Source: Candidatus Woesearchaeota archaeon (GTDB taxonomy: Archaea; Nanobdellota; Nanobdellia; Pacearchaeales; GW2011-AR1). Taken from it: a stretch of 64,000 nucleotides of DNA. The notes below the pieces were generated by a model. The model was not told where the DNA came from, did no database searches, and saw only the letters and a program-made list of their open reading frames with translations. Each line of letters begins with the position of its first letter. The first letter of the stretch is position 1. The stretch covers positions 44,682-108,681 of the forward strand of contig CAZUTV010000001.1 in the NCBI GenBank assembly GCA_964623495.1, written 5' to 3'. The translations under genes were made by a program, and so were the position numbers. Of the stretch, positions 20,665 through 62,391 are shown one piece after another.

Positions 20665-21024
20665 CTATTCCTTTACACTATGCCCTAATTCACTCAATTG
20701 AAGCCAAACAAAAACAGAACTAAACAATGAATTTTTAGATATTATAAAATTTTTAATTTCTAAGCAAATTTCATCTTGATTTTTTACTCTTTCAGGATAT
20801 GAATAAGCTTTTATTGTAACTTCTATCTCTGCTATTGGCAACTGATATTTTGGGACAATAACTTGTATGCTAATCTCTTCTGGTTTAAGCTCCCTACTGC
20901 TACCCGTAAGTTTTTTAGCTATAAACTCTCTCAACTCTGGAAGAATGTTCTTTAGTCCCTTGGCTTTATCTTCATTAACTATATTTATTATAACTGATGG
21001 CATAAAAAGATTAGAAGTCCACAA
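20665..21024 (-). CDS. hypothetical protein
   Basis: ORF only. Confidence 0.35.
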   Translation of the reverse strand: MWTSNLFMPSVIINIVNEDKAKGLKNILPELREFIAKKLTGSSRELKPEEISIQVIVPKYQLPIAEIEVTIKAYSYPERVKNQDEICLEIKNFIISKNSLFSSVFVWLQLSELGHSVKE

Positions 21025-21099
21025 CTTAAATGTTTTTCTAAATATGATTGCGAGGGAGCAGATATTAAAGAATAAATGCTTATTCCTCGACTTCTTTTT

Positions 21100-21208
21100 T
21101 GAATATTTTGAGTATAATGTGTAAAATGGGGTTTTAGCTAAACCCTGGGATAGATACTTCAGGACTCAAAAAGTTTCCCGAAGCCTCTATCCTGGGGAAA
21201 AAGAGGTG
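21100..21208 (-). ncRNA. candidate small structured RNA downstream of an orphan TATA-like element
   Basis: Minus strand: long stem CCCAGGATAGA...TCTATCCCAGGG, second hairpin GGGTTTAGCTAAAACCC, then a U-rich tract; no ORF; promoter-like motif at 21227-21245. Confidence 0.25.
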
Positions 21209-21226
21209 ATAAAATATAGATATCTT

Positions 21227-21245
21227 ACTAGTATTTAAACCTTTC
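21227..21245. promoter_or_regulatory. BRE/TATA-like element ACTAGTATTTAAACCTTTC (orphan copy)
   Basis: Near-identical to motifs upstream of the minus-strand genes at 44519 and 51115. Confidence 0.35.
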
Positions 21246-21501
21246 GTTTCTGTAACTATTCTAAAATGACATAAGGTTTTTCACCTGGAGTTACGATAGG
21301 GTGTTTAACTCTTAAGTGTCCTGTGTCTTCTTTAGTGGGACGAACCCTTTATATACTTTTAATATTTAACCACTACATTAATATATATTTAGTAACTACT
21401 CTATTGTTTTATTCTTAATCTTTATAAAACCCTCTTGCTTTTAATCATTACGGAGGAAAGAGGAAACTAAAATTTCCACATCTGTCTTATAGACAATCCA
21501 A

Positions 21502-22389
21502 ATGGGAGAGGAAAACAACATCAAACCCAATATAAAGCAAGACCAAATCCACGATTTATTATTCAACAGAGAAATTGGGTGGCAGGAAATAATCTATGAT
21601 CTAATCAATACAGAACAGTTAGATCCGTGGGATATTAACCTTGTGGTTTTAACTGATGGATATCTGGCAAAAATAAAGGATCTGGAAGAAGCTGATTTCT
21701 TTATCTCAAGTAAGGTTCTTTTAGCAGCCTCACTTTTATTAAGAATCAAATCAGAAATTCTCTTAAATAAGTATCTTAAAAACATTGATGAAATTCTCTT
21801 TGGCAGAGAAGAAAAAAAGAAAGCCGGTTTGGAGAGGATTGAATTAGAGGATGAAATTCCAGAGCTTGTTCCTAGAAGCCCATTGCCAAGATTCAGGAAA
21901 GTAACTCTTCAGGAGCTTATGGATTCTTTGAACCAGGCAATTAACACAGAGAACAGAAGAATAAACAAGGAGATAATAAAGAAGAATGCATTAAGGGAAG
22001 CAGGAATCTCGCTTCCAAAGCGAAGATTTTCCATAAAAGACAAAATCCAGGAGATTTATAACAAACTTTTTACTCACCTTAAGGACGATAGTATAAAGAA
22101 AAAGATAAGCTATACCGAGCTTATTGGAGATGATAAAGAAGAAAAGTTAATAGCTTTCTCCCCACTTTTGCACCTCGAGAATCAAAAGAGGATTTGGCTT
22201 GACCAGGAAAAGCATTTTGATGAAATTTATGTCTGGCTTAAGGAAACCTACTGGAAGCACAATCCAGACCCATTTGCAGACTTAAAGAAAGAACTTGAAG
22301 AAGAAATTGAAAACTTAGATGAAGAAGGAAAAAAGCGTCTTGAAAAAGTTAATGAAGACTTTAAGAGTCCTTTAGGGGATTTTGATTAA
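21502..22389 (+). CDS. scpA: segregation and condensation protein A-like kleisin (ScpA)
   Basis: N-terminal LDPWDINLVVLTDGYL resembles the ScpA N-terminal helix; charged central region; C-terminal winged-helix-like. Confidence 0.6.
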   Translation: MGEENNIKPNIKQDQIHDLLFNREIGWQEIIYDLINTEQLDPWDINLVVLTDGYLAKIKDLEEADFFISSKVLLAASLLLRIKSEILLNKYLKNIDEILFGREEKKKAGLERIELEDEIPELVPRSPLPRFRKVTLQELMDSLNQAINTENRRINKEIIKKNALREAGISLPKRRFSIKDKIQEIYNKLFTHLKDDSIKKKISYTELIGDDKEEKLIAFSPLLHLENQKRIWLDQEKHFDEIYVWLKETYWKHNPDPFADLKKELEEEIENLDEEGKKRLEKVNEDFKSPLGDFD

Positions 22390-28179: not shown

Positions 28180-28569
28180 CTAACTATTTTTTCCAAAACA
28201 GATATTGCATTTATTAGAAAATGACTTGTCCTGATTTTGATGGATCTTGCAGAGAGTTTTAGATTTCCTGAACTCAACGCAAAGTTTATAGACAACTTCA
28301 AAAGCATCTTTCTTTTTTTCAATTATTTCCTTGGCTGCTTTCATTATTTTAGTCTCTTGTTCTCTTGGAAACTTAACCTCTGCTCCCCTCTTTGACTTTG
28401 CATAATGGGATATTGTTGCCTCGCTTGTTCCAAAAATCTTAGCTATCTGCTTCTGGCTTAAATTATATTCTTTAATGAATATTTTAGTAAGTTCTCTTCT
28501 TAAGGCAGGAATAAGATACCATACTTCTATTTCCTGTGGCATAAGCTTGTTCATGTAAAAGCAAATCAA
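28180..28569 (-). CDS. HTH transcriptional regulator
   Basis: LSQKQIAKIFGTSEATISHY HTH; 7 nt upstream of the pilin gene. Confidence 0.5.
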   Translation of the reverse strand: MICFYMNKLMPQEIEVWYLIPALRRELTKIFIKEYNLSQKQIAKIFGTSEATISHYAKSKRGAEVKFPREQETKIMKAAKEIIEKKKDAFEVVYKLCVEFRKSKTLCKIHQNQDKSFSNKCNICFGKNS

Positions 28570-28627
28570 CGAGGGTATATAATTCTTTTCCCATAAAGCT
28601 TATAAAGTCTTAACTATTGTTAATTCT

Positions 28628-37026: not shown

Positions 37027-37261
37027 AAATTTTATATACTTCCAGTACCTTTATTTATAATGAAAAAGCTGACTATCGAGTCAGGTTCGGTATTTGATTA
37101 TAAGGAATCTGATACTGATCAGGACGAACTCGAAGAGCCTTTTCCCGATTCTAAAGAGGAAGAAGACGTTTCTTCCGTTAACTAAAAAACAATTTTTACC
37201 TTATAAACCTTTTTTCCTTAGCATTTTTGGAAAAGCTCATTATCAAAACCTTTTTTAATCT

Positions 37262-37405
37262 CCTCTTCCTTAATTTAACCATGGTTGAATATCGAATCAC
37301 TCAGAGGCATCGAAAAGATTCGACCTCGGTTGCTGGATCGAGAATTTACACGAATAATTCAAAAGGAGTGTGGGTTCGAGCAATAAAAACCCGCCGGAGG
37401 TTTTT
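37262..37405 (+). promoter_or_regulatory. GC-enriched structured leader / candidate cis-regulatory or small RNA element
   Basis: About 45% GC versus about 33% context; hairpins TCGAATC(16 nt loop)GATTCGA and CTCG..CGAG; terminal stem AAAAACC-CGCCGGA-GGTTTTT occludes the GGAGG SD 6 nt before the ATG at 37406. Confidence 0.3.
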
Positions 37406-43940: not shown

Positions 43941-44519
43941 TTAAAGTTTAGATGCTAAGTTCTTAAGCTCTTGCATTCTTGTGGTATCAACTGCATCAGG
44001 TCTTAAAGATTCATAGCTGTATCTGTCAAGTGTCTGCATTACATCCATAACATCCTTGTATCTGGCTATGGTTTCCTTAGCTTCAGCAATTTGGTCATTG
44101 CTGAACAAGCCCTTTGGAGCTTTCTTGTCAGTCATGTACTTTGCTTTGGCATATTTCTCTCTTATAGACTTGATAGTTTCATCATGTCTATTCAATGCGC
44201 CAACAATCTTGTCTCTGTCTCCAGATTCAAGACCTCCTAAAGCAGAGCCATACCAATCAACTAACTCAGAAGGTTTATATTCTCCTCTCTTCTCTTCGAA
44301 TTTAGATGCATAAACTGCTATTGCAGTAGTTACACCATCTTCAGAAGCCTGAGTACCCCTGATAAAACCTTCAGCATCTTCTCCTAAGTTAAGGCCTTTT
44401 GCACCTGCAAGTACTTCTAAAGCACCCGGAGCATATCTTCCGCCATCTTCAGTTGAAGCTAAATAAGCGGCAGCTGCACCATACTGGTATCTTTTAAAGT
44501 CTGTTCTTTGGTCAGGCAT
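43941..44519 (-). CDS. hypothetical soluble protein
   Basis: ORF with a strong promoter-like motif upstream and T-rich terminator downstream. Confidence 0.45.
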   Translation of the reverse strand: MPDQRTDFKRYQYGAAAAYLASTEDGGRYAPGALEVLAGAKGLNLGEDAEGFIRGTQASEDGVTTAIAVYASKFEEKRGEYKPSELVDWYGSALGGLESGDRDKIVGALNRHDETIKSIREKYAKAKYMTDKKAPKGLFSNDQIAEAKETIARYKDVMDVMQTLDRYSYESLRPDAVDTTRMQELKNLASKL

Positions 44520-44579: not shown

Positions 44580-44598
44580 ACTAGTATTTAAACCTTTC
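44580..44598 (-). promoter_or_regulatory. BRE/TATA element (GAAAGGTTTAAATACTAGT on minus strand)
   Basis: About 60-80 nt upstream of the start at 44519. Confidence 0.4.
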
Positions 44599-50629: not shown

Positions 50630-51115
50630 TTAAGGAACTCTTCCTGAAATTGTTCCGCTTGCCTGCTGTGTTATCCCTCCAGCTCCTGCAGTGAAGTAAA
50701 CAGTAACATCGCCGTTAAACCTGGTGTCTGAAGTTAAAGCGGTTCCGTCGCATGCAACTGTCAAAGCTCCGGTTAAAGTTCCGTCAGCAACAGGACCAAC
50801 ATCTGCAAAGGTATCGGTTGCAGAATTAGTGCATCCTTCAATCTCTATATTTGAGATTGTTACTGCATCGCCAACACCATTCCTAAATTCTATCTGGATA
50901 TTTCCGGGTACTGGAGCAGCAGATATAGCCATACCTTCTGGATCAAATGGCTGGCTTAGAGTAAATCTATTTCCAGCAAGGTTTCCAGGACTTCCTATAA
51001 TATACCATAAAACTCCTACAACAATGATTGCAGCTAAAATTGCCCAACCATAAGTCATAAGAAACTCCATGGCCGCCTGTCCTCTTTTTCTTATCATAAT
51101 CATACCTCCTTTCAT
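50630..51115 (-). CDS. archaeal type IV pilin-like protein (class III signal peptide)
   Basis: IRKRGQAAMEFLMTYGWAILAAIIVVGVL; Gly/Thr-rich beta domain. Confidence 0.6.
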   Translation of the reverse strand: MKGGMIMIRKRGQAAMEFLMTYGWAILAAIIVVGVLWYIIGSPGNLAGNRFTLSQPFDPEGMAISAAPVPGNIQIEFRNGVGDAVTISNIEIEGCTNSATDTFADVGPVADGTLTGALTVACDGTALTSDTRFNGDVTVYFTAGAGGITQQASGTISGRVP

Positions 51116-51159
51116 CAGGTCAAATAAATCTTAACCTCTTATAATTTTATTATGGAAAA

Positions 51160-51177
51160 TTAGTATTTAAACATTTC
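51160..51177 (-). promoter_or_regulatory. BRE/TATA element (GAAATGTTTAAATACTAA on minus strand)
   Basis: About 50 nt upstream of pilin start 51115. Confidence 0.4.
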
Positions 51178-56895: not shown

Positions 56896-56946
56896 CTACA
56901 CTCCTATTTAGAAATGAAGAATATATAAACATTTTTAATAAACATA

Positions 56947-57443
56947 TGGGGAAAAAAAGGCTGATAATTTTAGGACTCTTTGTCTTGTTATTTTCTGGAA
57001 TAAATCTTTACTTATATTTTAACCAAGGGAATAATTCCTATTCCAAAATTTCCGGATTATTCATGGAAGACTTGCAGGAAGGAATGAACCTTTCAGTAAT
57101 AATCTTTATAGGCCAGTGGGTTTTATTATTGGCTATTGTTTTATTTGCCTACACGAGGTTCCTTAGGCACAAAAGAGAGCAGGAAGAGGTCAAACCTATA
57201 GAATGTAATATTCAGCCCTCTGGAACAGGATCAGAAACAGAATTAGACTGTTTATACAAACTATTGCAGGAAAAAAAGAGATTAAGTATAGACACTATTG
57301 CAAAATCCTTTAATGTTTCAAAAGAAAAAGCATTGGAGTGGGCGAAGATACTGGAGAACAGCGAGCTGGTTACCATAGAATATCCTGCATTCAATGATCC
57401 AGAAGTTAAGATCATAAAAAAAGAGGAAGAATCAAAAGAATAA
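56947..57443 (+). CDS. membrane-tethered winged-helix protein
   Basis: Two TM segments then C-terminal wHTH (RLSIDTIAKSFNVSKEKALEWAKILENSELV); track start 56859 is TTG inside the promoter. Confidence 0.45.
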
Positions 57444-62264: not shown

Positions 62265-62391
62265 TGCGCGGACCGGGAATCGGACCCGGGTCACCTCGTC
62301 TTTGCATTTTTGCTTCTTTGAGCGCCGAACTTTCTTTCTAAAGAAAGTTGGGCATTGGCAACGAGATATTCTACCATTAAACCATCCGCGC
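62265..62391 (-). tRNA. tRNA-Gly (GCC) with about 54-nt intron in the anticodon loop
   Basis: Perfect acceptor GCGCGGA/TCCGCGC and T-arm CCGGG-TCCGATT-CCCGG; anticodon stem TCTCG...CGAGG interrupted after TTGCCA by an insert with an internal hairpin. Confidence 0.7.

What the first reader, a model, noticed from the sequence alone, without database searches (positions are those of the whole stretch)
21025..21501. 478-nt gene-free gap with orphan promoter motif and stable stem-loops
This is the only long non-coding gap in the window. It contains a copy of the ACTAGTATTTAAACCTTTC BRE/TATA motif about 200 nt from the nearest gene start. Downstream on the minus strand there is a 12-bp stem (CCCAGGATAGA / TCTATCCCAGGG), a second hairpin and a U tract. 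The plus-strand side also has GC-richer hairpins (CACCTGGAG...; GGGACGAACCC). This is a candidate small RNA, for example an SRP or RNase P fragment or a lineage-specific sRNA, or a long structured 5' UTR of scpA.
Basis: seen in the sequence. Interest (0 to 1): 0.5.

Follow-up and report, generated by a model that had tools for sequence, protein, structure and literature searches.

The report
Conserved DPANN small RNA gene
The gap holds an uncatalogued small RNA gene of about 75 nt with its own archaeal promoter; it is conserved across Woese-/Pacearchaeota-type DPANN archaea, and its invariant single-stranded 5' end copies the ribosome's anti-Shine-Dalgarno sequence.

Summary
The motif reads as a promoter on the minus strand. 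Exactly 21 nt downstream of it begins a small RNA, at about 21210 running to about 21137 (CM hit 21133-21210, E 3e-13). The RNA has a 13-nt single-stranded tail, AUCACCUCUUUUU, then a 3-bp helix, a CA/CA internal loop, a long covarying hairpin, and GGGUU.

The same module is found in more than 100 metagenome loci. It is also in 16 of 16 loci fetched only through the neighbouring ScpA protein, and in those the first 16 nt never vary even where ScpA identity to the window falls to about 40%. G-U wobbles and promoter geometry fix the strand. In about nine loci the module is inverted, which shows it is an independent gene and not a scpA leader.

Nothing in Rfam 15 matches, including SRP and RNase P RNA, and I found no paper on it.

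Its function is inferred. Most likely it is a trans-acting RNA that works through its anti-SD-identical tail. The scpA start codon region, AUGGAAAAAGAGG, is complementary to the tail in many lineages but not in all. A decoy of the 16S rRNA 3' end is the main rival.

The rest of the gap is the scpA control region, with an operator-like element and two iteron-like repeats.

The parts
21133..21210 (-). Small RNA gene (covariance-model hit). The 5' end is inferred at 21210, the A of AUCACC. The conserved part ends at GGGUUU, about 21140.
   Evidence: R1 hit of 61.9 bits, E 2.7e-13, the only hit in the window. The block is conserved in all related loci.
21195..21210 (-). Invariant 5' segment AUCACCUCUUUUUCCC. 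Positions 1-13 (21198-21210) are single-stranded. The first 8 nt are identical to 16S rRNA 1531-1538, the anti-SD region.
   Evidence: Invariant in 16 of 16 loci retrieved through ScpA alone. Unpaired in nearly all MFE folds. The 16S sequence is quoted in PMC9032327.
21143..21197 (-). Hairpin. P1: 21195-97 pairs with 21143-45. CA/CA internal loop: 21193-94 with 21146-47. P2: 21186-92 pairs with 21148-54. 2x2 loop. P3: 21176-83 pairs with 21157-64. 11-nt apical loop: 21165-75.
   Evidence: Covariation: 97.3% of cells paired, 250 double-change cells against 54 in shuffles, and slid controls collapse. The inner stem folds better on this strand in 80 of 87 unique sequences.
21123..21145 (-). Lineage-specific 3' hairpin GGGUUU/AAACCC followed by UUUU; a probable terminator. 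It shares GGG with P1.
   Evidence: Read from the sequence. Across the family, GGG pairs with downstream sequence in 49 of 81 cases against 30+-3 in shuffles, but it is not universal.
21232..21245 (-). Promoter of the sRNA. On the minus strand it reads BRE GAAAGG (21240-45) then TATA TTTAAATA (21232-39). A 21-nt spacer separates it from the AUCACC start.
   Evidence: The other two copies of the motif lie 45-65 nt upstream of minus-strand genes. It is conserved in the family, and the spacer is 21 nt in 71 of 84 unique sequences.
21251..21271 (.). Conserved operator-like element TGTAACTATTCTAAAATGACA, immediately upstream of the sRNA BRE. Probably a transcription-factor site.
   Evidence: Conserved in the alignment. 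In distant loci it is a clean palindrome, TGTAACTATT-N4-AATAGTTACA. No other close copy in the window. It travels with the sRNA in inverted loci.
21289..21297 (.). Degenerate copy (AGTTACGAT) of the inverted box AGTAGTRAT seen in related loci.
   Evidence: Position and sequence compared with relatives. In the window it is weak.
21366..21399 (+). Two iteron-like repeats, TTAACCACTAC (21366-76) and TTAGTAACTAC (21389-99), 23 bp apart and upstream of the scpA TATA box.
   Evidence: TTAGGYACTAC 7-mers occur in 26-41% of scpA-upstream segments (about 65% for the two motif variants combined) against 0.7% or less of background. There are 2-4 direct copies about 23 bp apart in relatives. In the window they do not occur elsewhere above chance.
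21421..21429 (+). TATA box of scpA (TTTATAAAA). The scpA ATG is at 21502.
   Evidence: A TTTATAAAA element lies before scpA in nearly all relatives. ScpA matches Pfam PF02616 at 3.4e-16.

Best explanation
The gap contains an independent, single-copy small non-coding RNA gene on the minus strand. A consensus archaeal BRE/TATA promoter (21232-21245) starts transcription at about 21210. The RNA is about 70-85 nt long. Its layout is: 5'-AUCACCUCUUUUU (single-stranded), then a CCC/GGG helix, a CA/CA internal loop, a stable hairpin of variable length, and GGGUU(U). In this lineage a small terminator-like hairpin and a U4 tract follow.

Shown: the gene, its strand, its structure, its promoter geometry, its extreme conservation, and its fixed position between the rpoE-spt4-S24e-S27ae operon and scpA.

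Inferred: how it works. I think it most likely acts in trans through its accessible, invariant 5' tail, which is an anti-Shine-Dalgarno look-alike. The tail would base-pair with purine-rich ribosome-binding or start-codon regions resembling 5'-GGGAAAAAGAGGUGAU-3' and block or tune translation initiation. The neighbouring scpA mRNA, whose start reads AUGGAAAAAGAGG in many lineages, is one candidate target. The hairpin would serve only as a stabilising scaffold.

I put the existence of the sRNA gene at about 0.9 and the base-pairing mechanism at about 0.4.
For: Gene and strand.
- Window 21139-21284 is conserved at 73-81% nucleotide identity in all 8 genomes found through ScpA. It includes a 23-nt invariant run, while the hairpin interior varies.
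- 8 further loci fetched through distant ScpA proteins all carry the RNA, with the first 16 nt unchanged.
- Covariation on 90 distinct sequences: 97.3% paired, 12 of 17 pairs with changes on both sides, 250 such cells against 54+-6 in shuffles, and slid registers fall to 16-65% paired. The hand-checked 26-sequence seed gives the same picture.
- The inner hairpin averages -20.1 kcal/mol on the window's minus strand against -14.7 on the plus strand. It is better in 80 of 87 sequences, Wilcoxon p = 6e-14.
- The BRE/TATA motif is oriented to the minus strand, as at its two other copies. It sits 21 nt from AUCACC in 71 of 84 sequences.
- The module is inverted in about 9 loci and the neighbour on its 3' side varies, so it is autonomous.

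Mechanism.
- The tail is unpaired in nearly all folds.
- Its first 8 nt equal 16S 1531-AUCACCUC-1538, so it can pair with any strong SD.
- Tail duplexes with scpA start regions average -11.8 kcal/mol, against -5.0 to -10.1 for six neighbouring genes and -8.5+-0.7 for shuffled tails.
- Of 83 10-mer complementary sites in 1.56 Mb, at least 16 lie at the scpA start, which is about 0.6% of the sequence. This includes the inverted locus L072.
- Among scpA genes that begin MEKE, the second Glu codon is the complementary GAG in most.
- The best trans site in the window also covers a start codon, ORF 56946, at -19.5 kcal/mol.
Against: There is no transcript evidence; the TSS and 3' end are inferred.

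Complementarity to scpA is strong in only about a third of lineages. It is weak in the short-hairpin clade, where duplexes are -5 to -11.5 kcal/mol and scpA starts AUGGAAGA(C/A)AAA. scpA therefore cannot explain a tail that never varies.

The ScpA N-termini are Glu/Lys-rich. Purine-rich matches are partly compositional, and the loci are not phylogenetically independent.

Few genes in the window carry extended SD matches, and no universal target was found.

Invariance of UUUUUCCC and of the helix base goes beyond what SD pairing needs. That points to a protein partner, or to a different function altogether.

The A4 alignment was fitted to the model, which inflates the percentage paired.
Confidence: 0.4

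Rival explanations
1. Molecular mimic (decoy) of the 3' end of 16S or pre-16S rRNA. The single-stranded AUCACCUC next to a helix would bind the factors that normally hold the 16S 3' end: the KH-domain protein Dim2/Pno1, the Nob1 endonuclease, and a/eIF2-alpha. The RNA would titrate or time the last step of small-subunit maturation, or initiation itself, without pairing to mRNAs.
For: The first 8 nt are identical to 16S 1531-1538, which is the stretch gripped by the KH domain of Era in bacteria (PMC9032327). An archaeal Dim2-like protein is reported to bind the 16S 3' fragment together with a/eIF2-alpha, and Nob1 binds single-stranded RNA through its PIN domain and a helix through its zinc ribbon (PMC3326319 and its ref. 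40). rRNA-grade invariance over 16 nt in 16 of 16 independently fetched loci fits a protein or ribosome partner better than variable mRNA targets. The gene always lies beside a transcription/translation operon that starts with an Fcf1-like PIN gene.
Against: No binding data exist. The match to 16S ends after 8 nt: UUUUU replaces CU-3'. In the sRNA the motif is at a 5' end, whereas in rRNA it is at a 3' end preceded by helix 45. I could not read the 16S 3' end or spacer of these organisms, because none is in the loci held. The scpA-start complementarity would then be coincidence.
Confidence: 0.25
2. Local regulator only. The sRNA and scpA are a divergent pair controlled through shared DNA sites (the operator and the iterons). 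The RNA would act in cis, by transcriptional interference or as a perfect antisense to read-through transcripts from the upstream operon, with no trans targets.
For: Adjacency to scpA is near-universal. One repeated DNA motif (TNACTAC) flanks both promoters.
Against: In most loci the RNA is transcribed away from scpA. The inverted arrangement works equally well. An acetyltransferase gene separates the two in L136. Cis effects do not need an invariant 16-nt sequence or a covarying hairpin.
Confidence: 0.08
3. A 5' leader of the downstream minus-strand gene (20665-21003), or, on the other strand, a structured leader of scpA.
For: In the window a minus-strand ORF starts 130 nt beyond the RNA's conserved end, and scpA lies 290 nt from it on the other side.
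Against: The minus-strand neighbour differs or is missing in relatives. The window has a hairpin and U4 tract before that ORF, and the ORF has its own TATA-like element about 25 nt upstream of its ATG. The RNA is antisense to scpA, lies at a variable distance from it, and is sometimes inverted.
Confidence: 0.03
4. A DNA-level element, such as a protein-binding site, a centromere-like site or an origin component, and not an RNA.
For: An invariant 20-bp block lies next to iteron-like repeats, an AT-rich stretch (19% GC at 21350-21449) and a chromosome-segregation gene.
Against: Compensatory changes with strand-specific G-U wobbles and a fixed 21-nt distance from a directional promoter are signatures of RNA. 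No orc1/cdc6 gene appears among the gene calls of the nine loci that came with gene tables. The iterons may still be DNA sites, but they are a separate feature.
Confidence: 0.03

Closest known systems
Bacterial trans-acting sRNAs with a 5'-terminal or C/U-rich seed (for example RybB, MicC and OmrA/B in enterobacteria; RsaE/RoxS in Firmicutes). This comparison is from my own knowledge.
   Same: A short RNA with its own promoter. A conserved single-stranded seed at or near the 5' end, followed by a stable hairpin and a U-rich 3' end. The C/U-rich seed is complementary to SD and start regions. Such sRNAs are often encoded next to a gene they relate to.
   Different: This one is archaeal, with a BRE/TATA promoter. 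There is no sequence or Rfam relationship. Its seed is literally the anti-SD sequence. Its invariance (16 nt across lineages whose ScpA is only about 40% identical to the window's) far exceeds that of typical regulatory sRNAs. No Hfq-type partner is known.
Methanosarcina mazei sRNA162 (PMC3510493, seen). sRNA41, which masks ribosome-binding sites, is from my own knowledge.
   Same: Archaeal intergenic sRNAs proposed to pair with mRNA translation-initiation regions.
   Different: They are confined to Methanosarcina and have different sequences and folds. Neither has a 5' end identical to the 16S 3' end. Their function was tested experimentally; here it was not.
The 3' end of 16S rRNA (1531-AUCACCUCCUUA-1542) and its binders Era and Dim2/Pno1/Nob1 (PMC9032327, PMC3326319).
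   Same: Identical 8-nt AUCACCUC, presented single-stranded next to a helix.
   Different: The sRNA motif sits at a 5' end on a 75-nt RNA, is followed by U5 CCC rather than by CU-3'OH, and has no helix 45.
Archaeal guide sRNAs (box C/D, H/ACA), SRP RNA and RNase P RNA.
   Same: Small, stable, conserved archaeal non-coding RNAs with their own promoters.
   Different: There are no C/D/C'/D' boxes or K-turn, no pseudouridylation pocket or ACA box, no conserved apical SRP domain, and no Rfam hit. The apical part of the hairpin is the least conserved part.

Membership tests
Any Rfam 15 family (including archaeal SRP RNA, RNase P RNA, 5S rRNA, riboswitches) | Score at or above the family's gathering threshold with its covariance model | tested here: not met
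   The window at gathering score returned only 5 tRNAs, none in the gap. The gap at E<=10 gave only sub-threshold chance hits, best 20.9 bits against a threshold of 50. Five representative loci at E<=1 gave no hits.
SRP RNA | Conserved apical helix-8 domain (GNRA-type tetraloop with symmetric and asymmetric loops) | tested here: not met
   The apical part varies from a tetraloop on an 11-bp stem to inserts of more than 50 nt, and is not conserved.
Box C/D sRNA | C (RUGAUGA) and D (CUGA) boxes forming a K-turn at the paired termini, with guide regions between them | tested here: not met
   The family consensus has no such boxes on the transcribed strand. The only resemblance (GUGAUAA) is on the opposite strand, at the promoter-proximal end.
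H/ACA sRNA | Hairpin with a large internal pseudouridylation pocket, a K-turn or K-loop, and a 3' ACA box | tested here: not met
   Internal loops are only 2x2 or absent (short-hairpin clade), and the 3' end is GGGUU(U), not ACA.
Independent archaeal sRNA gene (kind, not a homology family) | Its own BRE/TATA promoter at the correct distance from the RNA's 5' end | tested here: met
   GAAAGG-TTTAAATA sits 21 nt upstream of AUCACC in 71 of 84 sequences. The same motif precedes two protein genes in the window.
Independent archaeal sRNA gene (kind) | Conserved secondary structure supported by compensatory changes on one strand | tested here: met
Independent archaeal sRNA gene (kind) | Independence from the flanking genes (not a UTR) | tested here: met
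   The 3'-side neighbour varies, the distance to scpA varies, and the module is inverted in about 9 loci.
Independent archaeal sRNA gene (kind) | A detectable transcript with defined ends | not testable with these tools
   No transcriptome data were available.
Base-pairing (seed-type) regulatory sRNA | An accessible conserved seed | tested here: met
   The tail is unpaired in nearly all MFE folds and invariant.
Base-pairing (seed-type) regulatory sRNA | Conserved complementary sites in target mRNAs | tested here: inconclusive
   About 40-fold enrichment at scpA starts, but absent in the short-hairpin clade and confounded by Glu/Lys-rich N-termini.
cis-regulatory 5' leader or riboswitch of scpA | Same strand as the regulated gene and a fixed position upstream of it | tested here: not met
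   Opposite strand, 159-712 nt away, and sometimes inverted.

The most novel reading that the evidence does not exclude
This is not an ordinary regulatory sRNA. It would be a core, possibly essential, ribonucleoprotein RNA of a large DPANN radiation (Woesearchaeales, Pacearchaeales and relatives). It would be a free-standing copy of the 16S rRNA 3' end that either competes with ribosomes for Shine-Dalgarno sequences genome-wide or occupies the Dim2/Nob1/aIF2 machinery, giving these reduced-genome archaea an RNA-level master switch on ribosome maturation or translation initiation.
Probability: 0.2. Interest if true: 0.85.

Novelty: new variant of a known kind. Interest (0 to 1): 0.62.

Why it matters
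DPANN archaea are uncultivated and have reduced genomes, and almost nothing is known about their non-coding RNAs. This is an RNA family with rRNA-like sequence constancy, a fixed genomic address and a clean covarying fold. It is absent from Rfam 15, and I found no description of it in the literature searched.

Its 5' end is the anti-Shine-Dalgarno sequence. It therefore bears on how these organisms control translation initiation or finish their small ribosomal subunits, and it gives a concrete, testable handle: one short RNA, one invariant 16-mer, and one candidate neighbour target, scpA, which links it to chromosome segregation.

In practical terms, the covariance model and the 20-mer are a ready marker for annotating this gene in hundreds of MAGs. 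The same intergenic region also exposes a repeated DNA motif that probably marks an unknown transcription factor controlling scpA.

Tried and rejected
- Rfam at gathering and at permissive E-values, on the window and on five related loci: nothing. SRP, RNase P, C/D and H/ACA readings were rejected on anatomy.
- Small ORFs. SD-like GAGGTGAT on the plus strand is not followed by a conserved start codon. Hairpin indels are not multiples of three. ATGACA in the operator is not a conserved ORF start (ATG ACA TAA in the window).
- Plus-strand RNA. The outer helix would pair fully with G-U on the plus strand, which at first favoured that strand. The inner helix statistics and the promoter overrule it.
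- A second, divergently transcribed RNA covering TGTTAC...TGACA. This was rejected because the element would lie upstream of any TSS set by the shared TATA box, and because it is a plain DNA palindrome in distant loci. I read it as an operator.
- Replication origin. Iterons and an AT-rich stretch are suggestive, but no orc1/cdc6 gene is in the conserved neighbourhood. Left as a remark.
- Search for 16S 3' ends in all held loci, to compare the tail with the local pre-rRNA: none present.
- Target search in the window. Few extended SD matches and one strong site at ORF 56946. This is too little sequence for a genome-wide test.
- Seven literature searches (DPANN/Woese/Pacearchaeota with sRNA or RNA-motif terms; the sequences AUCACCUC and CCUCUUUUUCC; anti-SD mimic) found no description of this RNA.

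Full report
**1. The observation**

The stretch 21025-21501 carries no ORF of 60 aa or more, apart from an 85-aa frame (20867-21124) that mostly lies antisense inside the left-hand gene, and no tRNA or Rfam match. A greedy ORF-plus-tRNA map makes it the longest non-coding stretch in the window, at 477 nt; the next are 343 and 305 nt. The gene caller of the source assembly also left it empty, and it called the left-hand gene as a 112-aa product starting at the ATG at 21003.

The 19-mer ACTAGTATTTAAACCTTTC is at 21227-21245. It recurs at 44580 (exact) and at 51159 (2 mismatches). That is 3 matches against 0.09 expected. The gap folds somewhat better than shuffled sequence on both strands (z -3.0 and -2.5).

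ScpA (PF02616) is on the right. An rpoE-spt4-S24e-S27ae operon headed by a PIN-domain gene is on the left.

**2. Direction of the promoter motif**

The other two copies of the motif lie 45-65 nt upstream of the start codons of minus-strand genes (43941-44519 and 50630-51115). Read on the minus strand the motif is GAAAGG-TTTAAATA, a purine-rich BRE followed by a TATA box. So in the gap it fires leftwards. A start about 22-26 nt downstream of the TATA box falls at about 21210.

**3. Conservation**

A ScpA-based scan of species-representative genomes returned 8 DPANN loci labelled Woesearchaeota, Pacearchaeota, Nanoarchaeota or Nanoarchaeia, with ScpA 66-78% identical. blastn and MAFFT show that window 21139-21284 is conserved in all eight, at 73-81% nucleotide identity. 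There is an invariant 23-mer, and the interior of the hairpin varies.

Nearly all of them show the same layout.

That set is selected for the 20-mer. I therefore also fetched 8 loci purely through distant ScpA proteins, which are 50-63% identical to a short-hairpin-clade ScpA that is itself 38% identical to the window's. The covariance model finds the RNA beside scpA in all eight. One of them is cut by the contig end. In all eight the first 16 nt, AUCACCUCUUUUUCCC, are unchanged. Only positions 17-18, the internal loop, vary.

So 16 of 16 independently retrieved loci have it.

**4. Structure and strand**

Every member folds the same way: a 13-nt free tail, a CCC/GGG helix, a small internal loop (CA opposite NA), and then a hairpin. 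The hairpin ranges from 11 bp closed by a tetraloop to inserts of more than 50 nt. GGGUU follows.

On a 26-sequence seed alignment whose registers I checked by eye:
- 98% of cells pair.
- 7 of 17 pairs change on both sides.
- No shuffle reaches the observed values.

On 90 distinct sequences aligned to model R1:
- 97.3% of cells pair.
- 12 of 17 pairs covary.
- 250 cells have changes on both sides, against 54+-6 in shuffles.
- Sliding the 3' partners by 1-3 columns drops pairing to 16-65%.

This second alignment is fitted to the model, so the seed result is the cleaner control.

The strand is settled by wobble asymmetry. The variable inner hairpin averages -20.1 kcal/mol on the window's minus strand and -14.7 on the plus strand, and it is better on the minus strand in 80 of 87 unique sequences (p = 6e-14). 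The sequences are related, so that p-value overstates independence. The strand is also settled by the promoter: TATA lies exactly 21 nt from the A of AUCACC in 71 of 84 sequences, with a range of 20-24.

In the window the model gives a single hit, 21133-21210 on the minus strand, at 61.9 bits and E 2.7e-13.

**5. An autonomous gene, not a leader**

The gene on the RNA's 3' side differs from genome to genome or is absent. The distance to scpA runs from 159 to 712 nt. In about nine loci (L021, L027, L034, L039, L066, L072, L084, L088, L129) the whole module, meaning RNA, promoter and upstream element, is flipped within the same S27ae-scpA interval. One locus (L067) has a tandem second copy that keeps the tail and P1 but has a different loop and hairpin.

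**6. What it is not**

There is no Rfam 15 match, at curated thresholds or at permissive ones, in the window or in representatives of the three hairpin types. The anatomy excludes SRP RNA (no conserved apex), C/D and H/ACA guides (no boxes, no pocket, no ACA), and a coding reading. Seven full-text searches found no description of it.

**7. The rest of the gap**

Immediately upstream of the sRNA BRE lies a conserved element, 21251-21271 TGTAACTATTCTAAAATGACA. In distant loci it is a clean palindrome, TGTAACTATT-N4-AATAGTTACA. It moves with the sRNA in inverted loci. I read it as an operator.

Further right, relatives carry one inverted box AGTAGTRAT and then 2-4 direct repeats of TTAGGYACTAC about 23 bp apart. 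The last repeat abuts the scpA TATA box. Its 7-mers occur in 26-41% of scpA-upstream segments (about 65% when the two variants are combined), against 0.7% or less of background windows.

The window has a degenerate box (21289-97), two repeats (21366-76 and 21389-99), and the scpA TATA box at 21421-29. The repeat does not occur elsewhere in the window above chance. All these elements share a TNACTAC core, so one DNA-binding protein probably controls both divergent promoters. That is an inference.

**8. How it may work (inference)**

The tail's first 8 nt equal 16S rRNA 1531-AUCACCUC-1538, the anti-SD region (sequence as quoted in PMC9032327). The architecture is a free, invariant 5' tail on a stabilising hairpin with a U-rich end. 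That is the architecture of seed-type base-pairing sRNAs.

Evidence for pairing:
- scpA start regions pair with the tail better than six neighbouring genes do (mean -11.8 against -5.0 to -10.1 kcal/mol), and better than with shuffled tails (-8.5+-0.7).
- Of 83 10-mer complementary sites in 1.56 Mb, at least 16 lie at the scpA start codon, typically as AUGGAAAAAGAGG. This holds across the long-hairpin clades and in the inverted locus L072.
- Among scpA genes that begin MEKE, the second Glu codon is mostly the complementary GAG.
- In the window itself the scpA site is only moderate, at -13.7 kcal/mol in the 5' UTR, about the top 1% of windows. The best site covers the start of ORF 56946, at -19.5 kcal/mol.

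Evidence against scpA being the whole story:
- The short-hairpin clade has weak scpA complementarity.
- The N-termini are Glu/Lys-rich, which is a compositional confound.
- A never-varying 16-mer suggests a more universal partner.

The main rival is therefore a decoy of the 16S 3' end for KH-domain and PIN-domain maturation factors (Dim2/Pno1, Nob1) or for aIF2-alpha. These are documented to bind that rRNA segment (PMC3326319 and its ref. 40). I could not test this, because no 16S 3' end is present in any locus held.

I rate the existence of the sRNA gene at about 0.9, the pairing mechanism at about 0.4, and the decoy at about 0.25.

**9. Verdict**

Its 'lineage-specific sRNA' option is right, and its SRP/RNase P and scpA-leader options are not.

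The feature is a new RNA family of a familiar general kind, a promoter-driven small RNA. It has two unusual properties: rRNA-grade invariance of a 5' tail that duplicates the anti-SD sequence, and a fixed genomic address across a large DPANN radiation.

Noticed in passing
window 21366-21399; related loci L001-L129 between the sRNA promoter and scpA: Iteron-like direct repeats TTAGGYACTAC, 2-4 copies about 23 bp apart, with the last one touching the scpA TATA box. One inverted copy (AGTAGTRAT) lies nearer the sRNA. The motif is strongly enriched here and absent from background. It probably marks an unknown DNA-binding regulator, or a centromere-like site next to scpA.
   Followed up: partly
L131-L134 (about 40-60 nt upstream of the scpA TATA box); window 21251-21271: In the short-hairpin clade the element upstream of the sRNA BRE is a near-perfect 24-bp palindrome, TGTAACTATT-N4-AATAGTTACA. 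In the window's clade only the left arm and TGACA remain.
   Followed up: partly
L067 557-674 (minus strand): Two tandem copies of the sRNA. The second keeps AUCACCUCUUUUUCCC and the GGG partner but has a different internal loop (AC/GA) and a different hairpin. This shows which parts are under constraint.
   Followed up: yes
L021, L027, L034, L039, L066, L072, L084, L088, L129: The whole sRNA module is inverted within the same S27ae-scpA intergenic region, so in these genomes the sRNA is co-directional with scpA.
   Followed up: yes
window 56931-56965 (+): The start of ORF 56946 reads AUGGGGAAAAAAAGGCUGAU. The ORF encodes a membrane-anchored protein with a weak TrmB-like HTH and lies upstream of a PilB/FlaI-type ATPase. 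This is the best match in the window to the sRNA tail (-19.5 kcal/mol). A TATA box about 27 nt upstream suggests a leaderless mRNA.
   Followed up: partly
window 21123-21145; 3' flanks of family members: In 49 of 81 members (30+-3 expected) the conserved 3' GGGUU pairs with a downstream AACCC to form a second hairpin that competes with helix P1. This could be a terminator or an alternative conformation.
   Followed up: partly
window 44580-44598 and 51159-51177: The same strong BRE/TATA motif drives two minus-strand genes with no Pfam match (43941-44519, 192 aa; 50630-51115, 161 aa). Both have GGAGG SD sequences in short leaders.
   Followed up: partly
window 62265-62391 (-): A 127-nt tRNA match spans the full 71-position model, which implies a long intron of about 56 nt.
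   Followed up: no
window 37027-37369 and 28323-28627: The next-longest non-coding gaps in the window (343 and 305 nt). They were not examined and have no Rfam hit at gathering score.
   Followed up: no
L131, L132, L134, L137, L138 downstream of scpA: In the short-hairpin clade, scpA is followed by HisRS and a ParA/MinD-type ATPase gene. Together with the repeats upstream of scpA, this hints at a chromosome-segregation neighbourhood.
   Followed up: no
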